Positions 7,586 to 47,825 of a DNA stretch of 64,000 bases are shown in pieces. A model generated the notes under the pieces. It saw nothing but the letters and a program-made list of their open reading frames with translations, did no database searches and was not told the origin of the DNA. Source of the DNA: Alphaproteobacteria bacterium (GTDB lineage Bacteria > Pseudomonadota > Alphaproteobacteria > Bin95). The position numbers and the translations under genes are program-made. Position 1 is the first letter of the stretch, and every line of letters starts with the position of its first letter. The stretch spans positions 4,864,001-4,928,000 of the forward strand of contig CBDBGH010000003.1 in the NCBI GenBank assembly GCA_965205265.1. Direction: 5' to 3'.

Positions 7586-8437
7586 ATGCTTCCCAAAGCC
7601 ACAGCGGAACAGGTGGTGGACCAGTACGAAAGGGGGCGCCGTAATTTCAGGCGTCTGGACTTCTCCGGAGAGGATTTCACGCGGGATTACCTGGAAGGCG
7701 TCGATTTCAGCGAATGCCGACTGGACGGCGCAACCTTGATAGGGGCCCATCTCGTTGGCTGCCGGTTTACCGGGGCGAGGGCCTTGCGTGCGGACTTCAC
7801 CGGCGCCCGCCTGACGAGTTCCAATCTCGACCGGCTCGTTGCCGGAGGCGCGGACTTCTCGACAGCCGATCTGAACGGCTGCTCTATCAATGACGCCTCC
7901 CTGCGCCGTGCCGACTTTCTCGGCGCCCAACTGCAGGACGCCTCGCTCCGCTCGCTCAACGCCCCCGGCGCCGACTTTACCGGCGCCCGCCTCGAACGGG
8001 CCGATCTGACCGATGCAATGCTGCACCGGTGCCTCTTCCGGGAGGTCCTTCTCTACGAAACGAAAATGCTGGCCGTCGAGGCGAACGGGGCGGATTTCAG
8101 CGGCGCGTCGGTCTGGAGGACGGATTTCGGCATGGCGCAGCTCGTGCGCTGCGATTTCCAGGACGCAACAAGCTGGAAAGCCCATTTCCGGGATGCCCAG
8201 ACGGCCAACCACGGAGCCCCGAATTTCCGCGGCACCTTCATCAACCACAGCATTCTGAGCAACGCGGTCTTCCGCGACGCGGATTTCTCGGAGGCCGTCA
8301 TCCTGCATTCGGATTTCTCCGGGGCCGACCTGCGCGGGGCCCTGTTCGACGATGTCACCATCGAACATGCCGGCATGGAGGGAAGCCTGCGTGGGCCTTC
8401 GGAGCCTCATGAAGCGGGCGTGCCCGATCCCGGCTGA
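7586..8437 (+). CDS. Pentapeptide-repeat protein
   Basis: YERGRRNF N-cap, ADFxx repeats, tail EAGVPDPG. Confidence 0.95.
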   Translation: MLPKATAEQVVDQYERGRRNFRRLDFSGEDFTRDYLEGVDFSECRLDGATLIGAHLVGCRFTGARALRADFTGARLTSSNLDRLVAGGADFSTADLNGCSINDASLRRADFLGAQLQDASLRSLNAPGADFTGARLERADLTDAMLHRCLFREVLLYETKMLAVEANGADFSGASVWRTDFGMAQLVRCDFQDATSWKAHFRDAQTANHGAPNFRGTFINHSILSNAVFRDADFSEAVILHSDFSGADLRGALFDDVTIEHAGMEGSLRGPSEPHEAGVPDPG

Positions 8438-8822
8438 CCGCCGGGCGCCCGGGCTCCGGTTCTGGCCGCTTGCGCTTCTGTGGCTGCCGGCCGGGGTGGC
8501 GGCAACGGCGCTGGTCCGCTTCGGAGCGGACGGCCGGGCAGAGGGAGATCCCGGGACGGGACTTGCGGCAATACCGGTGATGCTGGGGTCCCTGCTGCCG
8601 CTCGCGCCTTGCGGCCTGCCGCTGGCGCTCGGGTGCCGCCAGCTTTGGCGGCTCGGCTATCGAGCCGCCGCCTGGGTAGCCGGCTTCGGGCTCGGCGCGG
8701 TCACCGTTGCGGCCGCGCTGCCGGCAGGACTGCTCGGGCCCGTCATGATCGCGGTCCATGCGGCGACGCTCAGTGTGCCGGTGTGGATCGCCTGCGTCTG
8801 GATCATCGTCCGCCGGAAGTGA
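8409..8822 (+). CDS. Small multi-TM membrane protein
   Basis: About 4 hydrophobic segments; start codon uncertain. Confidence 0.6.
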   Translation: MKRACPIPADRRAPGLRFWPLALLWLPAGVAATALVRFGADGRAEGDPGTGLAAIPVMLGSLLPLAPCGLPLALGCRQLWRLGYRAAAWVAGFGLGAVTVAAALPAGLLGPVMIAVHAATLSVPVWIACVWIIVRRK

Positions 8823-8899
8823 GCCCGAGCCCGGGGCCCGCTTCGGCCGGGAACAATATCCGCCCCGAGCGCACCGACCGATTTCTCTCCGCCTTCCGG

Positions 8900-8944
8900 T
8901 TATCCGATTGCCGCCAAAAGCGGATTGTCAGGACAATCCGGCTG
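8900..8944. promoter_or_regulatory. 17-bp-period operator-like array, site A
   Basis: TTATCCGATTG-N6-AAAGCGGATTG-N6-CAATCCGGCTG upstream of the gene at 9026. Confidence 0.65.
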
Positions 8945-9025
8945 GGGCTGTTTCCCGATTTCACGGCCTCCCTCCATACTTCCGGCGACCACGGGACATC
9001 CGACAACCGGAAGGCCGCAAAGGCG

Positions 9026-9880
9026 ATGCACGCACCAGCCTCCAGAGTGGACGAAATACTCGACCGCCTGAACCGTCAGGCCCACCGTTCATTCCGGGGT
9101 TTCGACCTCACTGGCCTGGATTTCGGCGACGCGCATCTCGCCGGCATAGACCTGACCGACGCCAGGCTCGACGGCGCGGACTTCTCGGGCGCCGATCTCA
9201 CCGGGGCCACCCTGGCCAACGCCTCGGCAGCCGACGCCCGCTTTATCGGCGCCAGGATGGAAGGGGGCGACCTGAGCGGCATCAACGCTTGCGGCTCAAA
9301 TTTCAGGGAGGCAGTCCTGACTGCCGCAAACCTCTTTCAGGCTCGACTGAAGCGGGCCTGCTTCGAGAACGCCCGGCTGGACCAGGCCTCGCTCGTCTGT
9401 GCCGATGCCGCGGGCGCGGACTTCTCCTTTGCCCATCTCAGGGGGGCCGTTCTGGCCGAAGCCGGGTTGGACCGCTGCTCCTTCAACACCGCCGACCTCA
9501 GGGAGGCCCGGCTTACGGCAATCCAGGCCAGGGGCGCGGATTTTCACGCCGCCTCGATCTGGAGGGCCGATTTCGCTCTCGCGCAGCTCGTACAGTGTTC
9601 ATTCACATCCGCAACGACCCGGAACGAGGATATCCTCCCCTCCGGTCCCCAGGCCCACGGCGCGGACTTCCGGGGGACGGTCATCAACCACTCCACATTG
9701 ATAAACGCGGACCTGCGCGGCGCGGGCTTCGTCGAGAGCTTCATCCTCCATTCGAGCCTGGTGGCCGCCGACCTGCGCGGCGCCGTGTTCGACGACACGA
9801 CGATCGAGAACACGGACATGGAACACGCCCTGAAGGGCCCGTTCGGGACAGAGCCTGCGGACGTGCCGGACCTCGGATGA
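9026..9880 (+). CDS. Pentapeptide-repeat protein (paralog of 7586-8437)
   Basis: Pentapeptide repeats; shares the FRGTxINHS and ILHS segments with the upstream paralog; tail EPADVPDLG. Confidence 0.92.
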   Translation: MHAPASRVDEILDRLNRQAHRSFRGFDLTGLDFGDAHLAGIDLTDARLDGADFSGADLTGATLANASAADARFIGARMEGGDLSGINACGSNFREAVLTAANLFQARLKRACFENARLDQASLVCADAAGADFSFAHLRGAVLAEAGLDRCSFNTADLREARLTAIQARGADFHAASIWRADFALAQLVQCSFTSATTRNEDILPSGPQAHGADFRGTVINHSTLINADLRGAGFVESFILHSSLVAADLRGAVFDDTTIENTDMEHALKGPFGTEPADVPDLG

Positions 9881-10642: not shown

Positions 10643-12517
10643 CTAGTCCATGTAGCTGCGGAGCTTCCGCGACCTGGACGGGTGCTTGAGCTTCCGGAGC
10701 GCCTTTGCCTCGATCTGCCGGATGCGCTCGCGGGTGACGCCGAAGGTCTGTCCGACTTCCTCCAGCGTGTGATCGCTCTGCATGCCGATCCCGAAACGCA
10801 TCCGGACAATACGCTCCTCCCGGGCCGTCAAGGTCGCCAGCGCCCCGGTCGTGCTGACCCGCAGGGAGCTCTGGATGGCTACATCGACAGGCTGGACCGC
10901 GTTGACGTCCTCGATCATGTCGCCGAGCATGCCACCGTCGTTTTCGGCGCCGATCGGCATCTCCAGGCTCACGGGTTCCTTCGCCACCTTCATCGCCTTG
11001 CGGACCCGGTCGACCGGCATCTGAAGGCGCTCCGCCAGCTCCTCGTAGCTCGGCTCCCGGCCGAGTTCGTGAACCATCTGCTGGCTGACGCGCCTCACCT
11101 TGGTGATGGACTCCACCATGTGGACCGGCACCCGGATGGTGCGGGCCTGGTCGGCGATCGACCGCGTGATGGCCTGACGGATCCACCAGGTGGCGTAGGT
11201 CGAGAACTTGTAGCCGCGGCGGTACTCGAACTTGTCCACCGCCTTCATCAGTCCGATATTGCCTTCCTGGATCAGGTCCAGGAATTGCAGGCCGCGATTG
11301 GTGTATTTCTTCGCGATCGAGATCACCAGCCTGAGATTGGCCTCGACCATCTCCTTCTTCGCCCGGGCCGCGTCACGGTCGCCTGCCTTGACCAGGACAA
11401 GAACCTCCCGGAACTCGTCGGGCAGCATGCCGGTTTCCTGGCACAGCTCGCCGAAACGCTGGCGGGCCGCACGGATGTCCTCGCGGAAACGGCTCGAGAA
11501 CGCCTTCCAGTCTTTCCGCTGACAGATGCTGCGCATCCAGCCACGGTCGAGTTCACGTCCCCGCCAGCCCTCGAGGAAGACCTCTCGCGGCATCTTCGCG
11601 CGCCGCGCGCAGCGCAGAAGGCGACTTTCCAGGCCGACGATCTCGCGCTGCGCATCGTACAGCGCGTCGCGCATCTCCTCGACGCGAACATCGAGCAGCC
11701 TGAGTTCCCGCATGGCCAGCGCCATTTCCTGCGTGATCTCACGCCAGGTGCGCAACTGGCGCGAGGAAGGCCCTTCGCCGCCGCACGCCTTCTCGAAGCG
11801 CATGGCGCGGATCCTGGCGAGCCTCGCCTCGAGGCGCGCAATCCGGTCCATGACCTCCAGGACGTGCGGTTTCAATTCCGTTTCGGTAGCCGCCAGGGAA
11901 CGGACCGCGTTGTCGTTCGCCCCATCCCCGTCCGGCATGTCGTCCGACATGTCGTCATCGTCGGCGGCGTCCGCGGATTTCCCGAAAACCTGGACCCAGG
12001 TGGCATCGAGACTCACCACCTCGCGCAGCAGCATCTCGTTGGCGTTCAGACGGTCCCTGAACCGGAGAATCCCGGCAATCGCCAGCGGGGTCGCGCAAAT
12101 CGCGCGGACCATCTTGGTCCGCCCGGCCTCGATCCGCTTGGCGACAGCGATCTCTCCCTCACGGGAGAGCAGTTCGACTTCGCCCATTTCTCGCATATAG
12201 AGGCGGACCGGGTCATCCGTCCGTGACGCCGTCTCGTCATCGACGTTTCCGGACCGCTTGACTTCCGCCAGACCTGACTCCGAAGAGGTCCCGGATATGC
12301 CGTCCTCGTCCTCGACAACCTCGATCCCCAGCTCGGCCAGGGCGGTCATCATGTCCTCGATCTGGTCGGACGATACGCGGTCCGAGGGCAGGGCGGCATT
12401 CAATTCCCCATAGGAGACCTGACCGGTCTCCCTGCCTTTCTCCACCAAGGCTTTCATGGCCTCTTCCGGAGACACGCCAGGCTCCCGATCCTGTACGCGT
12501 TCCGTTGCATTCGCCAT
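10643..12517 (-). CDS. rpoD: RNA polymerase sigma-70 factor, RpoD-like
   Basis: Region 1.1, [79 protein letters not shown]. Confidence 0.97.
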
Positions 12518-12646
12518 TCGCGCGTCTCCCGTGATCTCCCGATTGTCCCCGGTTATCGAAAATGGTCACCGGCGGCTGCCGGGTCAACGCATCCTTCCTA
12601 TTTTCACGGCCAGCCTGCATTCTGGGGCTCCAGGAAGGAGGGAACA

Positions 12647-13345
12647 ATGAGCGAGCCGCACACCGACATGGAGGGAACCCCGGCACCCCGGGAAAACCTG
12701 AGCGCAGAGCGCGTCATTGAACTCTACAAGGAGGGACGACGCGATTTCAGCGGACTTGACCTTTCCTTCCGGTCCTTCGGCGAGGCCGTGCTGCCGGGCA
12801 TAGACCTGAGCGACACCAACCTCCAGAATTCCAGTTTCCGCGGAGCGTACCTCCGCCGGGCCGATTTCACCGAGGCATGGACGATCGGGGCGGATTTTTC
12901 GTTCGCCGACCTGCGGGAGGCCGATTTCACCGATTCCGGCGCCAACGCCCTGGACGGGGCACAATGCGAGGGGGCCCGCTTCTTCGGCTGCCATCTCTGC
13001 GATACGACGGTAGCCGGAGCCACCTTCGCCGGCGCGACTTTCCGCGGCGCCACCATCGAGGGAGTGTCCTTCGACGGACACGACCTGTCGGGTATCGACT
13101 TCTCCCGTGGCCATATCGTCAACACCCGCTTCACAAGAGCCAATCTTCACAAGGCGAAATTCCACGACACCCGGATCATCCAGTGCGGTTTCGACGATGC
13201 GGACATGGGGCTCGCCAACATGCGGGGAAGCTCGCTGGAAGACTGCGCCCTGACGCCCGGGCAGATCGATCAGCTCGCCGAAGGACCGGAGGTGGTGAGG
13301 ACCGGTCAGGACAGCCGGTTACCGGAACCGCCGCCCGAACAGTGA
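12647..13345 (+). CDS. Pentapeptide-repeat protein
   Basis: LYKEGRRDF cap; RBS AGGAGG; tail LPEPPPEQ. Confidence 0.93.
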   Translation: MSEPHTDMEGTPAPRENLSAERVIELYKEGRRDFSGLDLSFRSFGEAVLPGIDLSDTNLQNSSFRGAYLRRADFTEAWTIGADFSFADLREADFTDSGANALDGAQCEGARFFGCHLCDTTVAGATFAGATFRGATIEGVSFDGHDLSGIDFSRGHIVNTRFTRANLHKAKFHDTRIIQCGFDDADMGLANMRGSSLEDCALTPGQIDQLAEGPEVVRTGQDSRLPEPPPEQ

Positions 13346-13359: not shown

Positions 13360-14463
13360 ATGTCCCGCGATGAACTGCTCCGGCTCTATGCCGCCGGAGA
13401 GCGGGATTTCCGCAATGCCGACTTCTCGGGCGAAGATCTCTCGGACCTGGACCTCGGCGAAGCCCGGTTCCGGTTTGCAAAATTCCGAGGAACCACCCTT
13501 ATCAGCACAATACTTCGTCGAACCGACATAAGAGGGGCGGATTTCACCGGCGCGCTCATCGTTGGCATCGTGTTTGCGAGAGCCAATCTCGGTCAGGCGC
13601 GTTTCAACGACGCTCGAATAGCTGGCTGCGACTTCCATGGCGCCCTAATGGAACAAACAGACCTGCAAGGGGTGCGCCTCGAGAGCTGCGGGTTCCTTGG
13701 CGCCGGGATGGAACTGGTCAACATGAAAGGGGCCAACCTCGACCGCTGCGCGATCTTGGAAGAACAGCTGGCGGGTCTGACGGGCCAGCCTGACACCATC
13801 ATCCCGGATAAGGGCCTCCCGAAACGCTCTGCGTGCAGGAAGCCCCGCTTCTCTGACGTAGAACATATGGCCCGCGGCGAGCTCGCCTGCCGCTATGCGG
13901 CCGGGGAGCGCCGTTTCGAGGGTCTCGATTTCTCGGACGAGGACCTCTCGGGCCTGGACCTCAGCCATGCTTATTTCGATTTCTCGATCTTCCGCGGAAG
14001 CTCTCTCAGGAAGACGCGACTGCACCGGGCGCGTCTTGCAGACGCGGACTTGGCCGAATCCGACCTCCGGGAAGCGGACCTTTCGGAAGCAGGCATGGAA
14101 TGGGTCATGCTTGACGGTGCCGATCTCCGGCAGGCAATTCTCGATCGCACCAACCCGCGCTATGCCTCCATGGCCCGGGCGCGCTTGGCCGGGGCATCGC
14201 TGCGATATGCGGATATGACGGGGGCCCTCTGTTTCGGGGCGGATTTCACCGGCGCCGATCTCTCCCATACCTTCATCCATGAAGCGGACTTCCGCGAAAC
14301 CCACATCGCCGCCACCCTGTTCGACGGCGCCGATATCCGGAAGAGCCGTTTTCACGGCGCCGCTCCGGCAAAGGCCGGCATGCCCGGCGCCGGGGTCGAC
14401 GACGAAAGCAAGTCCACGATGAACCCGGCCGCGAGTGAGCCGGACGTCCCGGCCCCTGGGTAA
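13360..14463 (+). CDS. Pentapeptide-repeat protein with two fused modules
   Basis: Two caps (LYAAGERDF and RYAAGERRF); tail SEPDVPAPG. Confidence 0.92.
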   Translation: MSRDELLRLYAAGERDFRNADFSGEDLSDLDLGEARFRFAKFRGTTLISTILRRTDIRGADFTGALIVGIVFARANLGQARFNDARIAGCDFHGALMEQTDLQGVRLESCGFLGAGMELVNMKGANLDRCAILEEQLAGLTGQPDTIIPDKGLPKRSACRKPRFSDVEHMARGELACRYAAGERRFEGLDFSDEDLSGLDLSHAYFDFSIFRGSSLRKTRLHRARLADADLAESDLREADLSEAGMEWVMLDGADLRQAILDRTNPRYASMARARLAGASLRYADMTGALCFGADFTGADLSHTFIHEADFRETHIAATLFDGADIRKSRFHGAAPAKAGMPGAGVDDESKSTMNPAASEPDVPAPG

Positions 14464-14662: not shown

Positions 14663-15478
14663 ATGCCTCAAGCCGCCAGAGAGGCCCGCAAGCTGACGGC
14701 CGTCGACGTCCTGGCCCGTTACAGGAACGGGGAGCGTGACTTTTCGGAGTGTGCCCTGGCCGGCGCCGATTTCGCCGGCGCAGATCTTCGCGGCATCGAC
14801 TTCACGGAGGCAGATCTGCGCGGGGCGTCCTTCACGGGAGCCCGGCTCGACAATGCAAAGTTCAACAACGCCGCCCTGTTTCATGCCAAATTCTACGGAG
14901 CCCGGCTCGAAGGGGCGGAATTCATCTTCGCCTCGATGCATGAAGCGGACATGAGCCACGCGGAGTGTCCGCATGCGCGGTTCGACAGGGCCGACATGAC
15001 CAAGGTTCAGGCCGGACATGCCGATTTCACGGAGGCGTCCTTCCTGCGCGCCAATCTCGTGCGGGCCGCCATGAGTCAGGCGATCCTGGTGCGCGCCAAT
15101 CTCCACGGCGCGAAATTGGCGGGAGCCGACTTCTCGCAAGCAAACATGCAGGAGGCATGTATCGACAGGGCCGTCGCCAACGGCGCGGACTGCATCGGGG
15201 CCGACATGACCGGAGCCAGTCTCCGCATGGCGAACTTCGACGATTCCGGCCTGTCCGGAGTTAATCTCACCGGCGCGGACTGCAGGGACGCCTCCTTCGA
15301 CAATGCCGGCATGGAAGGGGCCATACTCGATCATGGCCTCTTCGACGGCGCCGAATTCACCTGGACGCAGATGGACGGGGTTTCCGCGAGAGGGGCCGAC
15401 CTCTCGGGCGCCGACACCAGCGACGCCACCCTGGACCTGTCGGCAACGGCCGGCACGACCGGCACGCCGGCTCCCTGA
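14663..15478 (+). CDS. Pentapeptide-repeat protein
   Basis: RYRNGERDF cap; tail GTTGTPAP. Confidence 0.93.
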   Translation: MPQAAREARKLTAVDVLARYRNGERDFSECALAGADFAGADLRGIDFTEADLRGASFTGARLDNAKFNNAALFHAKFYGARLEGAEFIFASMHEADMSHAECPHARFDRADMTKVQAGHADFTEASFLRANLVRAAMSQAILVRANLHGAKLAGADFSQANMQEACIDRAVANGADCIGADMTGASLRMANFDDSGLSGVNLTGADCRDASFDNAGMEGAILDHGLFDGAEFTWTQMDGVSARGADLSGADTSDATLDLSATAGTTGTPAP

Positions 15479-15483: not shown

Positions 15484-16416
15484 ATGTCCAGACACGCAAC
15501 GGCACCAGGATCGCGAATGCGCCGCATCCCGCTCGTCAAGGCGTCTGAAATCCGGAAGGACCATGCTGCCGGCCGTCGCGATTTCCGGTGTATCGCGATC
15601 CATCCGGACGATACGGACCTCTCCGGCGCGGACCTGCGCGGCACCGACTTTTCGGGGGCCCTGCTGGCCAATGCAAACATGACCGACGCGAACCTCCGGA
15701 AGGCCAGGTTCACGGGTGCGGACCTGCGCGGGGCGCTGCTCATCCGCGCCAACCTGTCGCGTCATCCTCTGGACGACGCGAATTTCAGGCGGGCGGACCT
15801 GACGCGCGCGGACCTGACCGACGCCCGGTGCGCCGGGGCGGACCTCATCGGCGCCATCCTTGCCGAGGCCGACATGAAAGGGGCCAATCTCTCGAAAGCG
15901 GTCGCGTTGTGGGGGGACTTTACCGAGGCCCGGATGGACGCCATCGACTTCACGGGCGCGCGCCTGAACCACGCGCGCTTTCTCAAGGCCCTCGCTCCCA
16001 GACAACGTCCGGCGCTCTTCCGCGGGGCGGACCTCTCGGACGCCACACTTCGCGGGGCGAGTTTCGCCTGTGCCGATTTTGGCGAAACCGACTTGCGGCG
16101 CGCCGTAATGAGCTTCGGGATATTTTCCGGAGCATCCTTCCATGGAAGCAGGTTGCGCAACAGCGAACTCTCCTCGGCCAGCATGCGCGAGACCGATATG
16201 ACCGAAGCGGATCTCGCGTCGGCCGACTGCTTCGAGGCCGATTTTACGGGCTCCAAATTTGTGAACACGGGGGTTAAGGGGACGAAATTCGCTTACACGA
16301 AGCTCAGTCTGGTCGACTTCACCGGGACCGAGTTCGATCCGGCGAAAGCCTCTTCATGCGATCTTCAGGACGCCGTTTTCCCGGGACTCGCCGGCTCCGT
16401 CCCGGGTCCTGGCTGA
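15484..16416 (+). CDS. Pentapeptide-repeat protein
   Basis: HAAGRRDF cap; tail GSVPGPG. Confidence 0.93.
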   Translation: MSRHATAPGSRMRRIPLVKASEIRKDHAAGRRDFRCIAIHPDDTDLSGADLRGTDFSGALLANANMTDANLRKARFTGADLRGALLIRANLSRHPLDDANFRRADLTRADLTDARCAGADLIGAILAEADMKGANLSKAVALWGDFTEARMDAIDFTGARLNHARFLKALAPRQRPALFRGADLSDATLRGASFACADFGETDLRRAVMSFGIFSGASFHGSRLRNSELSSASMRETDMTEADLASADCFEADFTGSKFVNTGVKGTKFAYTKLSLVDFTGTEFDPAKASSCDLQDAVFPGLAGSVPGPG

Positions 16417-16592: not shown

Positions 16593-17891
16593 ATGACCCC
16601 CGGGGCAGCGCCAGGCGTAACCGAAGTCCCGCTGGGGATAGACATCCTCCAGAGGGACCTTTTCCGTCGCAATCCGGCCTTCCGGACCCTCCCGGCGGGT
16701 CGGGAGCCCTGCTTCGTGAACGCGTTTGCCGGCTGCGGCGGGCTTGCCCTGGGCCTTGTGCGTGCCGGATGGACCGGCCTGCTTGCGATAGAGGAACGGC
16801 AAGCCGCATGGGAAACCCTCTCGGCCAACCTCCTGCACCTGCACGCATTCGCCTGGCCAGCGGACATCGAATGCCGCGCCTGGTCTCTGGGCAGCCTTCT
16901 CGCGACTCATCGCGGGACGCTTGCCTCCCTTGCCGGCAACGTCGATCTCCTGGCGGGCGCTGTGCCGTGCAGTCCCGGGACCGCCCCCGAAGATCCGGCC
17001 AACCGCATCTGGCAGGATTTCCTGTCGCTTGCCGACATGCTGCGGCCCGCAGCGATACTGATCGAGAGTATGCCGGCCTTCGTGCGCTCTCCGCGCAACC
17101 GCGGCTCGGGCAGGACCGGAACGAGTTTCGCCGGCCACTTCCAGGAATCGCTTCCCGGATACGATGCGGCCGCAGCGCTGCTCGATGCGGGGGCCTTCGG
17201 CGTGCCGCAGCGCCGGCGGCGTGTCTGGGTCATCGCCACCCGGAACGACCTCGATCTGCCTGTCCAGGTCGCCGGTTTCTTCGACCGGGCCGGACGCGAT
17301 GCCTCGCTTTTCCTGCATGAACGCGGGCTTCCGCCGTCGCCGACCGCCGAGGAGGCCATCGGTGACCTGGAAACAGACGGCAATTCCGTCCCGGCCTATG
17401 GCGGGCCCCGGACGGCCTTCCAGGACGTCATGCACCGCGGATGCAACGACGAACCGGCCGACCGGCGTCTGACCCGACACAGCCATGCCGTGCAGGCGCA
17501 ATACCGGAAGGCCATTTCCCGGGCGCAACGCCCGACCGGCACCAAGAAGGCCGGGAAGGAGGGACCCGGACGCCCGACGCGAGTCCTGGAGCGGTCCCGG
17601 CCGGCGCCTCCGGTGCCGGCAAGTCCCGAAGACCTGCTTCACTACGCCGAACCGCGGACATTGACGGTCCGTGAGGCGGCCCGCCTGCAGACCTTTCCGG
17701 ACGAGTTCGCTTTCCACGGCGTTCACACGGCAAGCGGCACACGCCGCAACCGGGTGATGCCGCGCTATGCCTAGGTCGGCACAGCGACGCCGCCGCTGCT
17801 TGCGGAACAGATCGGCAGGGCCCTGTCCCGGCTCCTCCAGCATGGAGACAGGGCGCGGTCCGACATCCGCGAGCCCGCTATACATCATTGA
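16593..17891 (+). pseudogene. DNA (cytosine-5)-methyltransferase with in-frame TAG at motif X
   Basis: FAGCGG (I), AVPC (IV), GVPQRRRR (VIII), TVREAARLQTFPD (IX). TAG at 17772-17774 is followed by VGTATPPLLAEQIG up to TGA at 17891. Confidence 0.85.
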
Positions 17892-18289: not shown

Positions 18290-19357
18290 TCAGGGCGCTG
18301 CGGCCGGCTCTTCCTCCCAGGCGTCGAACCGGGCGCCCGTGCAGAAGGATTGGGCGAAAGACGCCGGCCGGTCGATGCGGGCGCCGCGGAAATCGGCTCC
18401 CGTGAAGTCGGCGCCCCGAGGATGAATACGGGCAATCTCCGTCTCTCGCAGATCGGCGCCTGACATCCTTGTTGCATCCAGGCCCGTCATGACGAACCGG
18501 GCGCCGCGCGCACGGAAGTTTTCGCATTCCGCACCGGACAGGTCCGCATCCTGGAGATTCACCTTCTCCATGGAGACGCTGCGCAACACCGCCCGGACCG
18601 CCGTCGTTCCGACAAGCTTCGCCTCGTCGAGGATGACGCTGCCGAGTTCGGCTTGCCGCATGTGCGCCCCACCGAGATCGGTCAGGCGCATGTCGGCACC
18701 GACCAGCTTTGCTCTTGTGAACGTGCAGTTCGCGAAATCCGCACCCGCCGCCCGGATGCCGGTGATGCGGGCGTCGCTGAAATCGGCGAGCCCGGCTTTC
18801 GCCTGCTCGAGAACACAGTCCCCAATCAGGGCGTCGGCGAACATGACCCGCAGCAGGTCGGCCTTGGCCATCCTGCACTTCAGGAACCGGGCCCCCGCGC
18901 AATTGGCGCCGCGCATCTGCGCTTCTTCCATCTGGCAATCGCTGAATTCGGCCTGGTCCAGCCGGGCGCCCTCGAAAATGGTGCGATACAGGTCCGTGCC
19001 GACGAAACGGCAGCCGCGCAGGTCGGCATCGACGAAACTCGCGGCAGCGAGTTCCGTTTCGTGAAAGAAGGCCTTCTCGAAGACCGAGCCCGTGAACACG
19101 GCCTCGCTCATCCGGGCGCCTTCGAAACGGCAATCCTCGAAAACGCAGTCCGTGAAGTCCGAGGCGCCGAGTTCCACGTCGTTGAACGGCGTGGCCTCGA
19201 AAAGGCAGCCGTCGAAATTGGCGCCGGTCAAATCGAGTTCGACAAAACCCGACCCGGGCGGCTCCGACCGGATGTGGAGGTCCCGAAAGCTGCGGTCGCC
19301 TGCCTCATACCGGGCAAGCAAATCCCGGGGACCGATCATTTGCCGTTCCGTCGCCAT
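18290..19357 (-). CDS. Pentapeptide-repeat protein
   Basis: RYEAGDRSF cap; tail WEEEPAAAP. Confidence 0.93.
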   Translation of the reverse strand: MATERQMIGPRDLLARYEAGDRSFRDLHIRSEPPGSGFVELDLTGANFDGCLFEATPFNDVELGASDFTDCVFEDCRFEGARMSEAVFTGSVFEKAFFHETELAAASFVDADLRGCRFVGTDLYRTIFEGARLDQAEFSDCQMEEAQMRGANCAGARFLKCRMAKADLLRVMFADALIGDCVLEQAKAGLADFSDARITGIRAAGADFANCTFTRAKLVGADMRLTDLGGAHMRQAELGSVILDEAKLVGTTAVRAVLRSVSMEKVNLQDADLSGAECENFRARGARFVMTGLDATRMSGADLRETEIARIHPRGADFTGADFRGARIDRPASFAQSFCTGARFDAWEEEPAAAP

Positions 19358-22379: not shown

Positions 22380-22402
22380 CCGGAGGGAAAAGGAGAGCAT
22401 CC

Positions 22403-34641: not shown

Positions 34642-34897
34642 GGCGACGGGAGCGGCTCCTGCGGGCCTGCGACCCTTACACCGCTTGCCATGATCCCCGC
34701 CGCGCGCAGCTTGTCCCTGTCACCCGGCGTCATCAGCGCTCCATCGAGCTTTGAATCCCAACCAAACGGCGTCCGATGACCTGCATCGGCCCCACGAAGA
34801 TCCGCTCCCCTGAAATCCGTCTCCGAAAAGGCCGCATCGCGAAGCACCGCATCGCGCAGGTCGGCGGCACGGAACACCGTTCCGAACAGCCCGGCAC

Positions 34898-34961
34898 CAT
34901 ACATGTTCGCACCGCGCAGGTCGGCACCGTCCAGGCAGGCCCGGTCCAACCCGGCGCAATC
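34898..34961 (+). repeat. 64-bp target-site duplication (second copy 36878-36941)
   Basis: CATACATGTTCGC...CCGGCGCAATC on both sides of the IS. Confidence 0.95.
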
Positions 34962-36877
34962 CCTGACTTCGACGGTTGATTCGCATAAGTAGTTGATATT
35001 GCCTGGTTCTCATTTCGGCTAGGCACTACATCCGGCATTTCTTCGAGCCGTGCTTCGTCGACGGTCAGGCGAGTTGATACGGGGTGATCGTCAGGGGCAG
35101 CCCCATGGTTGCGTAAATCTGCTCCGCCGCCGGTGTCGGCTTCGAGGGGATGACGTAGCGGTTGCCCGATTGCCGACAGCGCAGCAGGGAGCACTGGCGG
35201 TGGACGAGGGCGGAGCGGATGACCTCCGGGGACATCCGCCGCTTCTGGATGGCGACGCGGTACGCAAGGTGTCGAACGCAGGCGAAGGCCAGGAAGGCGA
35301 TGGCGATGTGAGCGCGGATCCGGTCCGGGTTCCAGTGCCAGATGGGACGTATCTTCAGGTCGTGTTTGGTGATCCGGAAGCTCTCCTCGACCTGCCAGAG
35401 CCCCTGGTAGTGAGCCATCACTTCGGTGACGCGCGCGTCGCGCAGATTGGTGATGACGCCGGTGAGCCCGTCCCATCGTGCGGCCTCGGCGATCTTCTCC
35501 GGGTTCACCGTGAGCCGTGCGTCGCCCTCGACGGCGATGAAGCGCTTCGCCCCGTGATTGGAGAGCAGTTCCCTGGGATTGTCGCTGCGGGCCAGCCTGT
35601 CGAGCAGGCGTTCCACCTGATGGCGGCGCTCGTGCGCGTCCTTGCGTGCGCGCTGGGGGCAGAAGACGACGATCAGGCGACGGCCCTTGTACTCCCACTC
35701 GCCGACCCGGCGGTCCTGTGAGCCCTCCAGCGGGGCATAGGTCCCGGGGTCGAGAACCTGCCCCAGCAGCGCGAGCGGCAGCTTGCGCAGCCGCGCGCCG
35801 ACGACATACTCGCCGCCGATGGCGTCCATGGCGTCGAGGTTGTCGGCGCTCAGCATGCCCCGGTCGGCCACGCATACCGTGCGCTCCACCTGGTGGCGGC
35901 GCTGCATGTCCTGCAGGACCGGGACCATGCTGTGTCCCTCGTAGGTGGCGCCGGGGAAGACCTCGTAGCTGATCGGCAGCCCTTCGCGCGTCACCATCAG
36001 CGCCAGCAGAACCTGCGAGTCCTTGTGTTTGCCGTCCTTGCTGAAGCCGTGCTGGCGAAGCTCGTCCTCGGCGGCCGTCTCGAAGTAGAGCGTGGTGCAA
36101 TCGAAGAAGAGGATCGCGACCGGCTCCGGCAGCAGCGACCGGCTCGCCTCGCCGACGCGCGTGCGCAGTCGCTCGATCACCGTCGCGTCGAGCTGATCCA
36201 TCATCCGGTAGACCTTCTCGAGCGGAAGACTCACGCCGAAGTCCTCCTCGAGCCGGCGCACGCTGCCCCGCTTGCTGTCGGGGTTGGCTACCCGCGCCAT
36301 CACCACATGGAACAGCGCGTCATGGGAGGCCCGGTAGCGCGAGCGCGGCAGCAGCGCGTCGAGGCCCAGCAGCCGGTAGATCTCGCCATAGACCTCGTGG
36401 ATGCCTGTGATCAGGCGCTGCTCCTCTTCAAGCTGCTTGAGGTCGACCGGGAGTTCCTCCTTGCCGTCCCCCCGGCGGCCGACACGGATCGCCTGCTCAG
36501 CGATCTTCTCGGGCGCAAACAATGCCGGCTGACGCTCGTCCTCCAGCTTCGCCTTGACGTACTCGCCGAGCTGCCTCAGGCGCTCGAGCTCGTCCTCGTC
36601 CATGGCCACGCCGACATGGCGGACGATGCGCTGTCGGACCTTGCCGCCGTCGCGCACGGCCTCGACGATCTGGACCGAGCGTCGCGGGCTGTTGGGGGAG
36701 GTCTTGATGCGCACGAACATGGGGGGAGTGTAGCGCGTGGCGGAGGCATTGACAGTCTCAAAGATTTACTAGGCACTACAACGCAGCTTGACCGCACCGC
36801 AACTGCCAACTCATTGGCTTTACTGAAAACTCCAGACGCGAGATCGGTCAGAAGTCAGCCCAACCGTCGAAGTCAGG
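34962..36877 (-). mobile_element. IS1634-family element copy 3 (1916 bp)
   Basis: Same inverted repeats; flanked by a 64-bp direct repeat. Confidence 0.95.
35065..36720 (-). CDS. IS1634-family transposase
   Basis: Protein identical to the other two copies. Confidence 0.95.
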   Translation of the reverse strand: MFVRIKTSPNSPRRSVQIVEAVRDGGKVRQRIVRHVGVAMDEDELERLRQLGEYVKAKLEDERQPALFAPEKIAEQAIRVGRRGDGKEELPVDLKQLEEEQRLITGIHEVYGEIYRLLGLDALLPRSRYRASHDALFHVVMARVANPDSKRGSVRRLEEDFGVSLPLEKVYRMMDQLDATVIERLRTRVGEASRSLLPEPVAILFFDCTTLYFETAAEDELRQHGFSKDGKHKDSQVLLALMVTREGLPISYEVFPGATYEGHSMVPVLQDMQRRHQVERTVCVADRGMLSADNLDAMDAIGGEYVVGARLRKLPLALLGQVLDPGTYAPLEGSQDRRVGEWEYKGRRLIVVFCPQRARKDAHERRHQVERLLDRLARSDNPRELLSNHGAKRFIAVEGDARLTVNPEKIAEAARWDGLTGVITNLRDARVTEVMAHYQGLWQVEESFRITKHDLKIRPIWHWNPDRIRAHIAIAFLAFACVRHLAYRVAIQKRRMSPEVIRSALVHRQCSLLRCRQSGNRYVIPSKPTPAAEQIYATMGLPLTITPYQLA

Positions 36878-37673
36878 CATACATGTTCGCACCGCGCAGG
36901 TCGGCACCGTCCAGGCAGGCCCGGTCCAACCCGGCGCAATCCAGACCGCAATCCACGAGCCCTGCATCCATGAGCCACGCACCCGAGAAGTCGCAACCGG
37001 CCGCGTCCATGTTCTCCAGGCTGGCTCCCGCCAGATTGGCCCCGGCGAATTTGGCTTCCTTCGCTTCGGCGCCGCTGAAATCCGCGGCCGCCAGACGGGC
37101 TCGCGTGAAATCGGCCCCGGCCAGGCGGGCCTGCGCGAAACAACATCCACCGGCCAGAACCGCTTCGAACCGGCAGCCCGTCAGATCGGACCTCAGGAAA
37201 GAGCACACGGCAAGATGCGATCCTGAAAAGTCCGACCCGGGCAGACGAACATCCGACAGGTCCATTCCTGACAGATCCAGATTCCGGAAATCACGTTCCC
37301 CCTGCGCATGACGCAGACAAAGCTCCTGAAGCGGGACACGCTCCCGCGCGGACATCACCGGGACACCTCATTCTTCCCGAAGCGCCGAAGGGCGTGGAAG
37401 CAGGTCAGAGTCCCAACCATGCCGGGGTTCCTTCGGACCGATCCCCTCACCATCCCACTGTTCCCTGAAAACTCCAATCCTCCCGGTTCCCACCGTGCCC
37501 CCGAGGGCCGCTGCGTAGAAGGCCCTCCCGTCCTGAACACCTGAACAATGTCTCCTGCCGGAACCGCAGTCCCCAAGGCAGGACCCCAACCCGGTCGCTC
37601 CCATCATCGCGGCGCCTGACCGGCGCGCCGGCCGCCGGAGTCCGGCGTCGACGCACTCATGAGCCCCACCCAT

Positions 37674-45945: not shown

Positions 45946-46359
45946 ATGCGCCGCTTCCTGAGCCAGGCCCTCCGGGCCCTTTCCGCCGCCGCCCTCGCCG
46001 TGCCGGCCTGGGCGGCCGCGGCCTTCCTGCTCGCGCTGCCCGCCGGCGCCCAGACCGGCAATATCGGCTCTGTGGCCGAGAACGTGCAGGGCCAGTTCGG
46101 CAGCCTCGCGGACCTTCTCGGGGCGGCCGCCTTCCTCGCCGGGGTCGGCTTCGTCGTGTTCGGCATCTTCAAGTTCTACAACTATTCCAAGAACCCCCAG
46201 GACCCGCAGAACAAGGTCGGCTCCGCCGTCATGCTGGTCGTCGCCGGGGCGATGATGATCGCCGTGCCCACCGTCGCCGGCGTCGGCGTCGTCTCCATCT
46301 TCGGCGAGGACAGCACCAGGGTGCAGATCGAGGGCGAGCAGCTCCGGAGCATCCGGTAA
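45946..46359 (+). CDS. IcmD/DotP-like (type IVB pilin-like) protein, copy 1
   Basis: Signal peptide, then IGSVAENV..FGSL..FLAGVGF..GIFKF..KNPQ and a second TM ending SIFG. Confidence 0.7.
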   Translation: MRRFLSQALRALSAAALAVPAWAAAAFLLALPAGAQTGNIGSVAENVQGQFGSLADLLGAAAFLAGVGFVVFGIFKFYNYSKNPQDPQNKVGSAVMLVVAGAMMIAVPTVAGVGVVSIFGEDSTRVQIEGEQLRSIR

Positions 46360-46401
46360 ACCCCGACACACGGCCTTTCCGACGCACAAGGAGTCCTGCC
46401 C

Positions 46402-46812
46402 ATGATGCATCGCTTCCTGAGCCGGGCCCGCCGGGCCCTTTCCGCCGCCGCCCTCGCCGTGCCGGCCTGGGCGACCGCGGCCTTCCTGCTCGCACTGCCC
46501 GCGGAGGCCGCGGACAATATCGGCACCGTGGCCACCAATGTGAAAGGCCAGTTCGGCAGCCTCGCGGACCTTCTCGGGGCGGCCGCCTTCCTCGCCGGGG
46601 TCGGCTTCGTCGTGTTCGGCATCTTCAAGTTCTACAACTATTCCAAGAACCCCCAGGACCCGCAGAACAAGGTCGGCTCCGCCGTCATGCTGGTCGTCGC
46701 CGGGGCGATGATGATCGCCGTGCCCACCGTCGCCGGCGTCGGCGTCGTCTCCATCTTCGGCGACGACACGCAGAAAGTGGACGCCGAGGGCTCCCTGCGG
46801 ACCATTCAATAG
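46402..46812 (+). CDS. IcmD/DotP-like protein, copy 2
   Basis: 218 bp identical to copy 1. Confidence 0.7.
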   Translation: MMHRFLSRARRALSAAALAVPAWATAAFLLALPAEAADNIGTVATNVKGQFGSLADLLGAAAFLAGVGFVVFGIFKFYNYSKNPQDPQNKVGSAVMLVVAGAMMIAVPTVAGVGVVSIFGDDTQKVDAEGSLRTIQ

Positions 46813-46838
46813 TCGGCGGGCGACCGGAGGAACGGTCC

Positions 46839-47825
46839 TCACGGCGAGGGCGATTCCTCCGGTTCCCCGAAGTTCCGGTCCGGTCTTCCGGCCAGCACCT
46901 CGTCGTAAACCGTCCCGACCACGATCGCCCGGAACAGGGCCCTTCGTTCCACCTGCCCCTTGTCAAGCGCCGCTCCGGTCATCACGGCATCCTCGAACAG
47001 CGCACCGTCCAGAACGGCCTCCTGAAGATTGGCACCCGAGAGATCGGCACTCCTGAAGACCGCGCGGTCCATCCGGGACTCAAAGAAATCCACGCCGGAA
47101 AGATCCGCCCCGGTGAAGTCGGCATGCCTGAGATCGGCCCCCTCTACCGTTGCCCCGGCCAATTGGGCACGGGCGAAAAGACCGAGCGCGATCACGCTGC
47201 CGCTCAGATCCGCCCCGGTCAAATCGCTGTTCGCGAATTTTGCCCGACGCAGTTTCTGCAACGACATGCTGTCGTCCGGGGCGATCCTGTCGATAGCGCC
47301 TTCGATCAGGCGGGCATTGCGCATCCACACGCCACGCATGACCGCTCCGGTGAAGTCGGCCCCGGAGGCCCAGCAATCCGTCAGGACCGCCCCGGTGAGA
47401 TCGGCCCCGTTGAACAGCGCATTGCACAGATTCGTTTCCCGCATGGCGGCACCGACCATGACCGCACGCTCGAACTTCCCGTCGGCCAGATTGGCATCCC
47501 TCATCTGCGCTCCGGTCAGGTTGGCTCCTGTCATCCGGCAATTCAGTCTGGCGTCCGTCAGGTCGGCCCGGATCAGCGTGGCCCCCGAAAAATCGGCGCC
47601 GCTGCAGGATGCCTGCCGGAGCTTCGCCCCGACCATCGCCGCCTCGCGGAACCAGGCGTGATCGAGGCGGGCGGCGCTGAAGTCCGTGCCGCGCAGCAGA
47701 CACCCGGAAAAATCCGCCCCGGTCAAGTCCGCCCCGCGAAAATCCATGCCCGACAGGTCGAGGTCGACGAAACGGCGCTCACCGTTGCGATACCGCCGGG
47801 TAATGTCGTCCCTGGTGATCGGCAT
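46839..47825 (-). CDS. Pentapeptide-repeat protein
   Basis: RRYRNGERRF cap; tail GEPEESPSP. Confidence 0.93.
   Translation of the reverse strand: MPITRDDITRRYRNGERRFVDLDLSGMDFRGADLTGADFSGCLLRGTDFSAARLDHAWFREAAMVGAKLRQASCSGADFSGATLIRADLTDARLNCRMTGANLTGAQMRDANLADGKFERAVMVGAAMRETNLCNALFNGADLTGAVLTDCWASGADFTGAVMRGVWMRNARLIEGAIDRIAPDDSMSLQKLRRAKFANSDLTGADLSGSVIALGLFARAQLAGATVEGADLRHADFTGADLSGVDFFESRMDRAVFRSADLSGANLQEAVLDGALFEDAVMTGAALDKGQVERRALFRAIVVGTVYDEVLAGRPDRNFGEPEESPSP

What the first reader, a model, noticed from the sequence alone, without database searches (positions are those of the whole stretch)
7586..47825. Expansion of 16 divergent pentapeptide-repeat genes with a common YxxG(E/R)RxF cap
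Seen: 16 genes (14 intact, 1 frameshifted, 1 IS-interrupted) within 40 kb, in tandem arrays at 7.6-9.9, 12.6-16.4, 18.3-20.4 and 24-28.6 kb. They are stand-alone beta-helices with no signal peptide or enzyme domain, and their surface positions are highly diverged. Established: Qnr and MfpA pentapeptide proteins act as DNA mimics that bind gyrase; PipB2 is a secreted pentapeptide effector. Inference: a diversified library of DNA mimics or decoys, possibly anti-defence or topoisomerase-protective, interleaved with methyltransferases as in plasmid establishment regions.
Basis: partly seen in the sequence, partly recalled or inferred. Interest (0 to 1): 0.8.

Follow-up and report, generated by a model that had tools for sequence, protein, structure and literature searches.

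The report
Pentapeptide-repeat gene swarm, giant conjugative element
The sixteen genes for rod-shaped pentapeptide-repeat proteins are real and belong to a swarm of about forty on a roughly 0.6-million-base transferable element that has its own secretion machine; many share a short acidic, proline-ended tail with unrelated repeat proteins, which suggests they are exported, but this has not been shown.

Summary
The window has 16 pentapeptide-repeat (PRP) loci: 14 intact, 1 frameshifted and 1 split by an IS.

The swarm is larger than reported. About 43 PRP genes lie in C3:4.87-5.26 Mb. Sixteen congeners have only 2-7 Pfam matches each, against 122 here.

The YxxG(E/R)RxF cap is not a family signature. 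It is the generic N-terminal cap of HetL/All3740-type PRPs and occurs in 32 of 120 unrelated PRPs. No window PRP reaches the NCBIfam cut-offs for Qnr, MfpA, PipB2 or HetL.

Paralogues are 27-54% identical to one another. No outside relative above 45% identity was found.

[quoted passage not shown] It also carries at least 13 ankyrin proteins, 32 tRNAs, a tmRNA and RF2.

New here: PRPs, ankyrin proteins, DUF6878 proteins and many orphans end in an acidic stretch followed by Pro-x-Pro. This tail ends 59 of 381 element ORFs against 46 of 3109 chromosomal ORFs.

Best reading (0.4): they are exported cargo of the type IVB system. DNA mimicry is neither supported nor excluded.

The parts
7586..8437 (+). 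PRP gene P01 (283 aa). It has the cap and its tail ends ..VPDPG.
   Evidence: PF00805 118.8 bits; translation
9026..9880 (+). PRP gene P02 (284 aa from the ATG; the ORF is open from 8480). The cap is degenerate. Its nearest paralogue is P01 at 44% identity.
12647..13345 (+). PRP gene P03 (232 aa). Its tail ends ..LPEPPPEQ.
13360..14463 (+). PRP gene P04 (367 aa). It is a fused double: two cap-plus-repeat modules in one frame, joined by a tail-like linker.
   Evidence: two cap matches at 49.7 and 44.3 bits in one ORF; translation
14663..15478 (+). PRP gene P05 (271 aa; the start is uncertain and could lie at 14435 or 14483).
15484..16416 (+). PRP gene P06 (310 aa). It is the only non-acidic one, with pI 7.7.
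18290..19357 (-). PRP gene P07 (355 aa), divergent from P08.
19530..20393 (+). PRP gene P08 (287 aa).
   Evidence: PF00805 176.1 bits
23428..23934 (+). Ankyrin-like ORF (168 aa) ending ..APEPGA, directly upstream of P09.
   Evidence: PADLOC Ankyrin and PDC-M72A models; tail
23968..24618 (+). PRP gene P09 (216 aa).
24690..25529 (+). PRP gene P10 (279 aa). Its cap aligns to the HetL/All3740 cap.
25557..26425 (+). Frameshifted PRP gene P11/P12. The frame changes near 26022-26030.
   Evidence: tblastn of P13: residues 1-155 in frame 1, residues 159-278 in frame 3
26458..27327 (+). PRP gene P13 (289 aa). It is 54% identical to P11, the closest pair in the whole set.
27790..28638 (+). PRP gene P14 (282 aa).
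32990..33598 (-). PRP gene P17 (about 202 aa) with a degenerate cap.
   Evidence: PF00805 70.2 bits; translation
34638..37355 (-). PRP gene P15, split by an IS. The N-terminal half is 36873-37355 and the C-terminal half is 34638-35009. The IS copy lies at 34958-36877. About 20 residues are duplicated on both sides.
46839..47825 (-). PRP gene P16 (328 aa). The model shows an N-terminal helix at 5-13, a beta-helix at 18-288 and a disordered tail at 301-328 ending ..EESPSP.
   Evidence: AlphaFold2 pLDDT 90.1, pTM 0.85; Foldseek top hit 3du1
22313..23041 (+). Orphan ORF with no family match, ending ..VPEPGP. It carries the same tail as the PRPs.
10643..12517 (-). Full-length RpoD-type sigma-70 gene (624 aa) lying between PRP arrays.
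   Evidence: six sigma-70 Pfam regions
16593..17774 (+). Orphan C5 DNA methyltransferase lying between PRP arrays.
   Evidence: PF00145 101 bits
60915..64000 (-). DotL/TrbC-type coupling protein of the type IVB system. It runs past the window end. DotM and DotA/TraY follow just outside the window.
   Evidence: NCBIfam TrbC_conju 311 bits, below its cut-off of 800; PF12696; DotM_C and DotA/TraY in L001

Best explanation
The PRP genes are cargo of a giant mobile element of about 0.6 Mb that encodes an I-type/Dot-Icm-like type IVB secretion system. The element is either integrated or joined to the chromosome by the assembly.

Each gene makes a soluble, acidic beta-helix rod. The rod has a generic N-terminal helix cap, a variable number of coils and a diverged surface. 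It ends in a disordered tail of 15-30 residues that is rich in Asp/Glu and Pro and often finishes in Pro-x-Pro.

The same tail ends ankyrin-repeat proteins, DUF6878 proteins, a Macro-NADAR protein and dozens of orphan ORFs of the element.

I infer that the tail is a recognition tag for the element's DotL/DotM coupling complex. On this reading the rods are handed to the secretion channel and delivered into the contacted cell. There, each variant would bind or imitate a different target.

Whether that cell is a bacterial recipient (establishment, counter-defence) or a eukaryotic host is open.

Shown here: the genes, the predicted fold, the element context and the shared tail. Inferred: export, the receptor for the tail, and the targets.
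For: 1. Type IVB parts lie on both sides of the window.
- DotH/IcmK, DotD, DotB and IcmT/TraK lie at C3:4.762-4.792 Mb. PilB- and PilC-like genes lie there too.
- The DotL/TrbC-like coupling protein sits at the window end. DotM and DotA/TraY follow directly after it.

2. The tail is enriched on the element.
- P.P within the last 5 residues: 59 of 381 element ORFs against 46 of 3109 chromosomal ORFs (odds ratio 12.2, Fisher p 4e-31).
- 'PEP' in the last 12 residues: 27 of 412 against 14 of 3109. An internal control window gives 0 of 412.

3. The tail crosses families.
- Strict form (P.P within the last 5 residues): PRP 10 of 32, ankyrin 7 of 12, DUF6878 5 of 8.
- Loose form (P.{1,2}P within the last 10 residues): PRP 17 of 32, ankyrin 9 of 12, DUF6878 6 of 8, chromosome 180 of 3109.
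- All 15 window PRP C-termini have Pro in the last 6 residues, against 36% of chromosomal ORFs.

4. The tail is an add-on. DUF6878 proteins in 7 other genomes (6 canonical matches and one divergent, G323) end at the domain without it.

5. The tail is a protein-level feature. In the 59 tails the most frequent Pro-x-Pro-encoding 9-mer recurs only 4 times. All three stop codons are used. No downstream 8-mer occurs in more than 4 of 59.

6. Tails are acidic: 4.7 acidic and 2.1 basic residues in the last 25, against 3.1 and 3.3 on the chromosome. The tail is disordered in the model.

7. Legionella DotM recruits effectors through acidic Glu-rich C-terminal sequences (PMC5802825, abstract read).

8. 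PRP-containing secreted effectors exist: Rickettsia SrfD (PMC11258249, passages) and cREM-4 (PMC11077975, passages).

9. About 39 of roughly 43 genes keep open frames at 27-54% mutual identity. That argues for selection on each copy.
Against: - Only 10 of 32 PRPs (7 of 15 in the window) carry the strict tail, and 0 of 3 Fic proteins do.
- The tail was not seen outside this genome. Only 3 of 71 ORFs flanking DotA relatives in five other records have it. Ankyrin proteins of two congeners lack it.
- The motif differs from the described Legionella signal, because the prolines are new. No receptor was tested: the DotM-tail complex job never ran.
- Pro/Ala/Gly-rich ends can arise from read-through in G+C-rich DNA.
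- The system has thin-pilus genes like IncI plasmids, so it may only move DNA.
- No expression data were found.
- Element borders are not defined. The assembly repeats chromosomal ends around the region.
Confidence: 0.4

Rival explanations
1. The PRPs form a library of DNA mimics or decoys. They act against restriction, CRISPR or other defences, or they shield topoisomerases. They may work inside the donor or recipient, and a dedicated export tag is not required.
For: - They are acidic rods: median net charge -4.7 per 100 aa against 0.4 for the chromosome, and window pI 4.5-5.2 for all but one.
- They sit among orphan methyltransferases.
- The element carries a 28-gene tRNA array. Such arrays on mobile elements are called putative anti-defence (PMC12803027, abstract in search listing).
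- One PRP lies 557 bases upstream of a ParE/GyrB-like gene.
- Qnr, AlbG and MfpA are among the structural matches, at E 1e-9 to 1e-7.
Against: - None of 14 reaches the Qnr or MfpA model cut-offs. The best models are HetL and Alr5209.
- The top structural and sequence match is HetL, which is not a gyrase protector.
- None of 14 has a PADLOC hit.
- Two literature searches found no PRP described as an anti-restriction or anti-defence protein.
- Acidity is common among PRPs.
- Some forty variants at 30% identity is far more than any known mimic set.
Confidence: 0.2
2. The PRPs stay in the cell. They act as HetL-like binding modules, such as adaptors, inhibitors or immunity-type partners. Their targets would be the element's own many toxins (HipA, Fic, AbiEii, Zeta) or its replication and transcription proteins. 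On this reading the tail is a docking or turnover tag unrelated to secretion.
For: - The closest known proteins are HetL/All3740 and Alr5209.
- The element is rich in toxin-type genes and in its own DnaA, DnaB, DnaG, sigma-70, ParE-like and Topo IA genes.
- An M48 peptidase with a weak PDZ match lies at the left side of the element.
Against: - There is no consistent pairing of a PRP with any one toxin or enzyme gene. PRPs sit in PRP-only tandem arrays.
- The same tail on ankyrin, DUF6878 and orphan proteins is hard to explain by one intracellular partner system.
Confidence: 0.2
3. The swarm is a product of tandem duplication and drift with little present function. The proline-rich ends are compositional by-products of G+C-rich read-through.
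For: - Duplication is local. The best paralogue lies within 10 kb for 20 of 46 pieces, against 5.9 +/- 2.5 when positions are shuffled.
- At least 4 of about 43 genes are broken: 1 frameshift and 3 IS hits.
- GC3 of the PRP genes is 0.70-0.85, below that of IS and housekeeping-like genes at 0.82-0.89.
Against: - About 39 genes keep open frames of 200-480 codons at 27-54% identity.
- They show a clear coding signature, GC3 > GC1 > GC2.
- Tails are depleted in basic residues and enriched in acidic ones, unlike random G+C-rich read-through.
- Chromosomal ORFs of the same composition lack the tail.
Confidence: 0.07

Closest known systems
HetL (All3740, PDB 3du1) and Alr5209-type cyanobacterial pentapeptide-repeat proteins
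   Same: - Stand-alone Rfr beta-helix with an N-terminal helix cap that carries the YAAG(E/K)RxF motif.
- HetL is the best sequence match (phmmer), the best NCBIfam model for 11 of 14 and the best Foldseek match at E 1.8e-15.
   Different: - Scores lie far below the HetL equivalog cut-off: 45.7-140.7 bits against 260.
- The host is not a cyanobacterium.
- There are about 43 paralogues on a mobile element.
- The disordered acidic Pro-x-Pro tail is not seen in the outside PRPs listed.
Qnr / MfpA / AlbG / McbG topoisomerase-protecting PRPs (DNA mimics)
   Same: - Same fold and an acidic surface.
- Often carried on mobile DNA.
- Structural matches at E 1e-9 to 1e-7.
   Different: - Model scores are below cut-off: Qnr 25.9-90.4 against 240, MfpA 30.6-65.7 against 360.
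- Those proteins have no helix cap of this type. They dimerise through a C-terminal helix (review PMC8145042, passages). Dimerisation was not tested here.
Dot/Icm (type IVB) effector arsenals with Glu-rich C-terminal signals recognised by DotM (Legionella)
   Same: - A type IVB system with DotL/DotM.
- Large sets of repeat proteins (ankyrin, Fic, PRP-containing) with a disordered acidic C-terminal end (PMC5802825 abstract).
   Different: - This system looks like an I-type conjugation system, with TrbC-type coupling protein, DotA/TraY and thin-pilus genes.
- DotM is divergent: E 5.5e-30 and 594 aa, against E-43 to E-53 in the other genomes.
- The tail ends in Pro-x-Pro, which is not part of the described signal.
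- No translocation has been shown.
Secreted PRP-containing effectors: Rickettsia SrfD and cREM-4; Salmonella PipB2
   Same: Pentapeptide-repeat modules are used as protein-binding parts of secreted effectors (PMC11258249 and PMC11077975, passages).
   Different: - Those are single, multi-domain proteins. Here the proteins are pure rods in tandem arrays.
- PipB2 and PipB model scores are below cut-off: 40-101 against 354 and 45-89 against 274.
PRP gene arrays with constant end modules in large phages
   Same: A mobile element devotes a row of genes to PRP rods. The rods share end pieces but differ in length and surface. One note proposes delivery together with the DNA.
   Different: - Those are phages with a helical end module of about 100 residues. 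Here it is a conjugation-type element with a short disordered tail.
- The notes are unchecked AI notes and were not tested here.

Membership tests
Pentapeptide-repeat superfamily (Pfam PF00805 clan, Rfr fold) | At least eight tandem pentapeptide repeats matched above the Pfam cut-off | tested here: met
   18 of 18 PRP ORF pieces score 47-180 bits against the cut-off of 20.2
Pentapeptide-repeat superfamily (Pfam PF00805 clan, Rfr fold) | Right-handed quadrilateral beta-helix | tested here: met
   A predicted model only. P16 has pLDDT 90.1 and regular 5-residue strands at 18-288. All top Foldseek hits are PRP structures.
Qnr / MfpA topoisomerase-protecting PRPs | Sequence membership (NCBIfam Qnr NF033086, cut-off 240; MfpA NF000349, cut-off 360) | tested here: not met
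   14 of 14 are below cut-off: Qnr 25.9-90.4 bits, MfpA 30.6-65.7 bits
Qnr / MfpA topoisomerase-protecting PRPs | Head-to-head dimer through a C-terminal helix | not tested
   The P16 model has a short helix at 289-298. No dimer prediction was run.
Qnr / MfpA topoisomerase-protecting PRPs | Binding to or protection of gyrase / topoisomerase IV | not testable with these tools
   Needs a biochemical assay
HetL-type capped PRPs | N-terminal helix cap with the YAAG(E/K)RxF motif | tested here: met
   The cap aligns to the 3du1 cap. The model has a helix at 5-13. The cap is present in 14 of 16 window loci.
HetL-type capped PRPs | NCBIfam HetL equivalog, cut-off 260 bits | tested here: not met
   45.7-140.7 bits
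Type IVB (Dot/Icm, I-type) secretion substrates | Encoded together with a type IVB system | tested here: met
   DotL/TrbC-like, DotM, DotA/TraY, DotB, DotD, DotH/IcmK and IcmT lie on the same element
Type IVB (Dot/Icm, I-type) secretion substrates | Disordered C-terminal signal, acidic in one described class | tested here: inconclusive
   The tail is disordered and acidic. The Pro-x-Pro end is not part of the described signal. Only 10 of 32 PRPs carry the strict form.
Type IVB (Dot/Icm, I-type) secretion substrates | Secretion-system-dependent translocation | not testable with these tools
   Needs reporter fusions and secretion mutants
Plasmid leading-region anti-defence genes | Position next to oriT on the strand that enters first | not tested
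   No oriT was located. The nearest relaxase match (TrwC) is at C3:4730561, about 140 kb from the window.
Known anti-phage defence system proteins (PADLOC) | Match to a PADLOC model | tested here: not met
   0 of 14 window PRPs

The most novel reading that the evidence does not exclude
The acidic tail ending in Pro-x-Pro is a previously undescribed export signal of an I-type/type IVB conjugation system. It marks some 60-100 proteins as substrates, including about forty PRP rods, a dozen ankyrin proteins, DUF6878 proteins and many orphans. The proteins belong to a 0.6-Mb element that also brings its own tRNA set, tmRNA, RF2, sigma factor and replisome parts. On this reading a conjugative element would inject a large protein arsenal ahead of, or along with, its DNA.
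Probability: 0.3. Interest if true: 0.85.

Novelty: new variant of a known kind. Interest (0 to 1): 0.7.

Why it matters
PRPs are among the commonest proteins without a known role. One search found 89,341 representative clusters matching one of these proteins.

Here, about forty diverged copies sit on one transferable element next to a type IVB machine. They share an end tag with ankyrin and other proteins. That gives a concrete, testable handle: one short tail, one secretion system and a defined set of candidate substrates.

If the tail is an export signal, three things would follow:
- Large effector-like arsenals would not be confined to intracellular pathogens. They could also belong to conjugative elements of free-living bacteria.
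- PRP rods would gain a general role as delivered binding or mimicry modules.
- A sequence rule for finding such cargo in other genomes would be available.

If the tail is not an export signal, the element-wide tail still needs an explanation.

Tried and rejected
- dN/dS between paralogues could not be computed. Best-paralogue identity is 27-44% (maximum 54%), so synonymous sites are saturated.
- Polymorphism between strains was not usable. Contigs of runs X3, X4 and X5 are identical to the window over the PRP genes, for example 11181-23013 with 0 differences. Only one change was seen, at 18606.
- Expression: no RNA holder was listed.
- Complex prediction of DotM residues 235-470 with the P16 tail 284-328 never ran. 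This gives no information either way.
- Relatives of the element:
  - A DotM pattern scan of genome contigs found none.
  - DotA relatives exist in five alphaproteobacterial records at 31-44% identity and in one congener at 45-58%. Their flanks show no tail enrichment, with 3 of 71 ORFs.
  - Ankyrin proteins of G002 and G015 lack the tail.
  - DUF6878 was not found in G002 or G015.
- Close orthologues of the PRPs were not found: best 28-35% for P10, at most 45% for P16, and under 41% on plasmids.
- A DNA-level origin of the tail (Shine-Dalgarno or repeat element) is rejected.
- PADLOC gave no PRP hit.
- The protein atlas gave no usable hit for the orphan at 22313-23041.
- A word-index search with a DUF6878 paralogue gave only itself and one 78% relative.
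- Earlier notes of this scan held nothing for this genome or for the P16 sequence.
- The Pfam VirB4 model (PF03135) and the MOBP relaxase model (PF03432) found nothing in this genome. A weak TraC/VirB4-like ATPase was seen with NCBIfam.

Full report
WHAT IS THERE

The window has about 66% G+C. A Pfam scan of 19 candidate ORF pieces gave PF00805 above its cut-off in 18. With the translations these make 16 loci:
- 14 are intact.
- One is frameshifted at 25557-26425. A tblastn of its neighbour paralogue switches from frame 1 to frame 3 near 26022-26030.
- One is split by a 1.9-kb IS. The halves lie at 36873-37355 and 34638-35009, and the IS copy lies at 34958-36877.

Further details:
- One gene (13360-14463) holds two cap-plus-repeat modules in one frame.
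- The proteins have no N-terminal hydrophobic stretch and no second Pfam domain.
- They are acidic, with pI 4.5-5.2, except for one at 7.7.
- An AlphaFold2 model of 46839-47825 was built on an alignment of 21 paralogues (A1). It has pLDDT 90.1 and pTM 0.85. It shows an N-terminal helix (5-13), a beta-helix (18-288) with one inserted loop, a short helix (289-298) and a disordered tail (301-328).

THE SWARM IS LARGER THAN THE WINDOW

The window is G000:C3:4864001-4928000.
- Of the 150 PF00805 matches listed (164 found in all), all but those at two loci (C3:1.315 Mb and 2.398 Mb) lie in C3:4.871-5.258 Mb.
- A cap profile built from the window's 15 caps found 43 cap modules in C3:4871544-5258363, 28 of them outside the window. 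Elsewhere it found only one weak non-PRP match, in C1. The 15 window matches are circular. The 28 outside are not.
- A crude repeat score gave 56 ORF pieces. After dropping 10 false ones (8 antisense frames of an IS21 element and 2 others), 46 pieces remain. They make about 43 genes, of which at least 4 are broken.
- Sixteen genomes of the same genus have 2-7 PF00805 matches each, against 122 here at E <= 1e-5.
- Paralogues are old. Best mutual identity is 27-44%, the maximum is 54% and the median is 30%.
- The best paralogue lies within 10 kb for 20 of 46 pieces, against 5.9 +/- 2.5 after shuffling positions. So the swarm grew by local duplication followed by long divergence.
- No close relative exists outside the genome. 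The best is 28-35% among 5.8 billion proteins, at most 45% among 1.84 billion representatives, and under 41% on plasmids.

THE CAP IS GENERIC

- The cap aligns residue by residue with the cap of All3740/HetL (3du1) and of designed solenoids derived from it.
- HetL is the top Foldseek match, at E 1.8e-15. QnrB1, AlbG and MfpA follow at 1e-9 to 1e-7.
- The cap profile also hits 32 of 120 unrelated PRPs. These come from Nostoc and from TIR-PRP fusions of other phyla, and none of their listed ends shows an acidic Pro-x-Pro terminus.
- NCBIfam places none of 14 window PRPs above the cut-offs of HetL, Qnr, MfpA, PipB or PipB2. HetL is the best model for 11, Alr5209 for 2 and PipB for 1. P16 just reaches the Alr5209 cut-off, at 125.3 against 125.

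CONTEXT

I annotated about 420 further ORFs around the window with Pfam and NCBIfam. The ORFs came from my own GC3-based caller.

Secretion genes:
- The region encodes an I-type/Dot-Icm-like type IVB system.
- DotH/IcmK, PilB- and PilC-like proteins, DotD, DotB and IcmT/TraK lie at C3:4.762-4.792 Mb.
- A DotL/TrbC-like coupling protein lies at the window end and is followed by DotM and DotA/TraY.

Replication, transcription and translation genes:
- DnaA, DnaB, DciA, DnaG, RpoD-type sigma-70, class II ribonucleotide reductase and ThyX.
- A ParE-like protein, two Topo IA, RecQ, RecD2, RecJ, RNase H and LexA.
- RF2, Cas9 with Cas1/Cas2, and many DNA methyltransferases.
- 32 tRNA genes, 28 of them in one array, and a second, permuted tmRNA.

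Other cargo:
- HipA, Fic, AbiEii and Zeta-type toxin genes.
- At least 13 ankyrin-repeat proteins.

Extent and limits:
- No ribosomal protein or rRNA gene was seen in this region. The only 16S site is chromosomal.
- Tyrosine integrases lie at C3:5.321-5.326 Mb. A TrwC relaxase match lies at 4.7306 Mb.
- The region is therefore a mobile element of about 0.6 Mb.
- Its borders, and whether it is integrated, are not settled. C3:4632568-4659093 repeats C3:1-27098, and C3:5407582-5432139 repeats C3:36590-61081.
- Contigs of independent runs reproduce the PRP arrays without differences.
- DotM_C was found in 23 of 301 same-class genomes. This tally counts G000 itself and one genome flagged unpublished, G064. 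The DotM here is much more divergent than in the others.
- DotA relatives in named records are alphaproteobacterial.

THE SHARED TAIL

PRP proteins end in short Asp/Glu- and Pro-rich tails such as ..VPDPG..LPEPSP and ..EESPSP. The same kind of end closes ankyrin proteins, DUF6878 proteins, a Macro-NADAR protein and many orphans. ClpS, RNase H, RF2 and GPP34-like proteins lack it.

Counts with my own gene caller:
- 'PEP' in the last 12 residues: 27 of 412 element ORFs against 14 of 3109 chromosomal ORFs. An internal control window gives 0 of 412.
- P.P within the last 5 residues: 59 of 381 against 46 of 3109 (odds ratio 12.2, Fisher p 4e-31).
- Pro at position -1 is 20% against 8%, and at position -3 it is 20% against 6%.
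- By family, strict form: PRP 10 of 32, ankyrin 7 of 12, DUF6878 5 of 8, Fic 0 of 3, other 37 of 327.
- All 15 window PRP C-termini have a Pro in the last six residues, against 36% of chromosomal ORFs. Seven of the 15 meet the strict form.

Properties of the tail:
- Tails carry 4.7 acidic and 2.1 basic residues in the last 25, against 3.1 and 3.3 on the chromosome.
- In the 59 tails the most frequent Pro-x-Pro-encoding 9-mer recurs only 4 times, all three stop codons are used, and there is no shared downstream word. So it is not a DNA element.
- DUF6878 proteins in 7 other genomes (6 canonical matches and one divergent, G323) stop at the domain without a tail. So the tail is an addition made on this element.

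READING

The best-supported explanation is that the PRP rods are cargo of the type IVB system and that the tail is its recognition tag. The basis is as follows:
- The secretion genes lie on both sides of the window.
- The tail crosses unrelated families.
- The tail is disordered and acidic.
- Legionella DotM recruits effectors through acidic C-terminal sequences (PMC5802825, abstract).
- Secreted effectors with PRP modules are known (PMC11258249 and PMC11077975, passages).

Export, the receptor and the targets are all inferred.

Points against this reading:
- The strict tail is on only about a third of the PRPs.
- It was not found outside this genome.
- The prolines are not part of the described signal.
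- The system may serve DNA transfer only.

It has no specific support beyond acidity and neighbourhood, and the Qnr/MfpA membership tests failed.

LITERATURE LIMITS

- Two full-text searches for PRPs as anti-restriction or anti-defence proteins returned none that describes one.
- One search for PRPs with type IV secretion and ankyrin returned the Rickettsia papers only.
- I did not see any paper's supplements.
- Statements about IncI plasmids, Orientia elements and slow termination after C-terminal proline are recalled, not checked.

Noticed in passing
G000:C3:5094894-5101696, C3:5292698-5293015 and C3:5228095-5229081 (outside the window): The element carries 32 tRNA genes, 28 of them in one array. 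It also carries its own permuted tmRNA (tag ANDNQEFALAAA), besides the chromosomal one (tag ANDNEVALAA), and an RF2 gene at 414 bits, above the prfB cut-off. Many of its proteins end in proline, which is recalled to slow termination. A link between the two is untested.
   Followed up: partly
G000:C3:1-61081 against C3:4632568-4659093 and C3:5407582-5432139: The first 61 kb of contig C3 recur at 99.95-100% identity on both sides of the 4.66-5.41 Mb stretch. The contig may therefore be a path through a chromosome plus a large insert, or a mis-joined separate replicon. The reported contamination of 7.28% fits the duplicated housekeeping-like genes.
   Followed up: partly
L031-L033 (G026:C203, C59, C3): A small, 37% G+C genome of the same class has 124 PF00805 matches in tandem arrays. 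Its PRPs share a different conserved N-terminal module of about 40 residues and a constant basic C-terminal tail ending in KQK/KQR. This is an independent case of capped and tailed PRP arrays.
   Followed up: partly
window 4750-6669, 28940-30855 and 34958-36877: There are three near-identical copies (99.9-100%) of a 1.9-kb IS with a 551-aa DDE_Tnp_1 transposase. Copy 1 is flanked by a 93-bp direct repeat (4657-4749 = 6665-6757). The copy inside the PRP gene duplicates about 60 bp. Such long target duplications are unusual. The same IS splits or truncates two or three more PRP genes outside the window.
   Followed up: partly
L010:17995-18867 and L011:1424-3631 (C3:5105995-5109631): A PRP gene lies 557 bases upstream of a ParE/GyrB-like gene (704 bits against the parE cut-off of 723). 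This is the only PRP-topoisomerase adjacency seen.
   Followed up: no
L012:3293-6463 and L011:18121-19426; L009:14427-16871: The element encodes a Cas9-like protein (RuvC_III, HNH, Cas9 helical lobe; 1056 aa) with Cas1 and Cas2. It also encodes a second 814-aa HNH protein and a GSU0054-family Cas protein.
   Followed up: no
L006:10661-11362: This PRP carries a C-terminal DUF7007 domain. Its N-terminus reads into IS sequence (C3:5026661-5027413), so it may be a truncated fusion.
   Followed up: no
L018:6375-11544 (C3:5237375-5243607): Six tandem PRP genes carry an extra N-terminal domain of about 100-200 residues ahead of the cap.
   Followed up: no
window 10643-12517 and 2795-3850: A full-length RpoD-type sigma-70 (all six Pfam regions) lies between PRP arrays. 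A 351-aa protein with only the DnaA C-terminal DNA-binding domain also lies in the window. A complete DnaA lies elsewhere on the element (L026:9921-11315).
   Followed up: no
L004:11735-13643, L008:14407-16903, L012:6683-7243 and L015:11885-12394: DUF6878 is expanded to at least 8 divergent copies on the element (E about 1e-8 to 1e-16). It is single-copy and canonical (E-50 to E-55) in six other genomes. Only the element's copies have the C-terminal extension.
   Followed up: partly
window 10690-11340: In the laid runs, many alternative letters pile up only over the sigma-70 gene. They most likely come from rpoD genes of other organisms in mixed samples, not from variation of the element.
   Followed up: no
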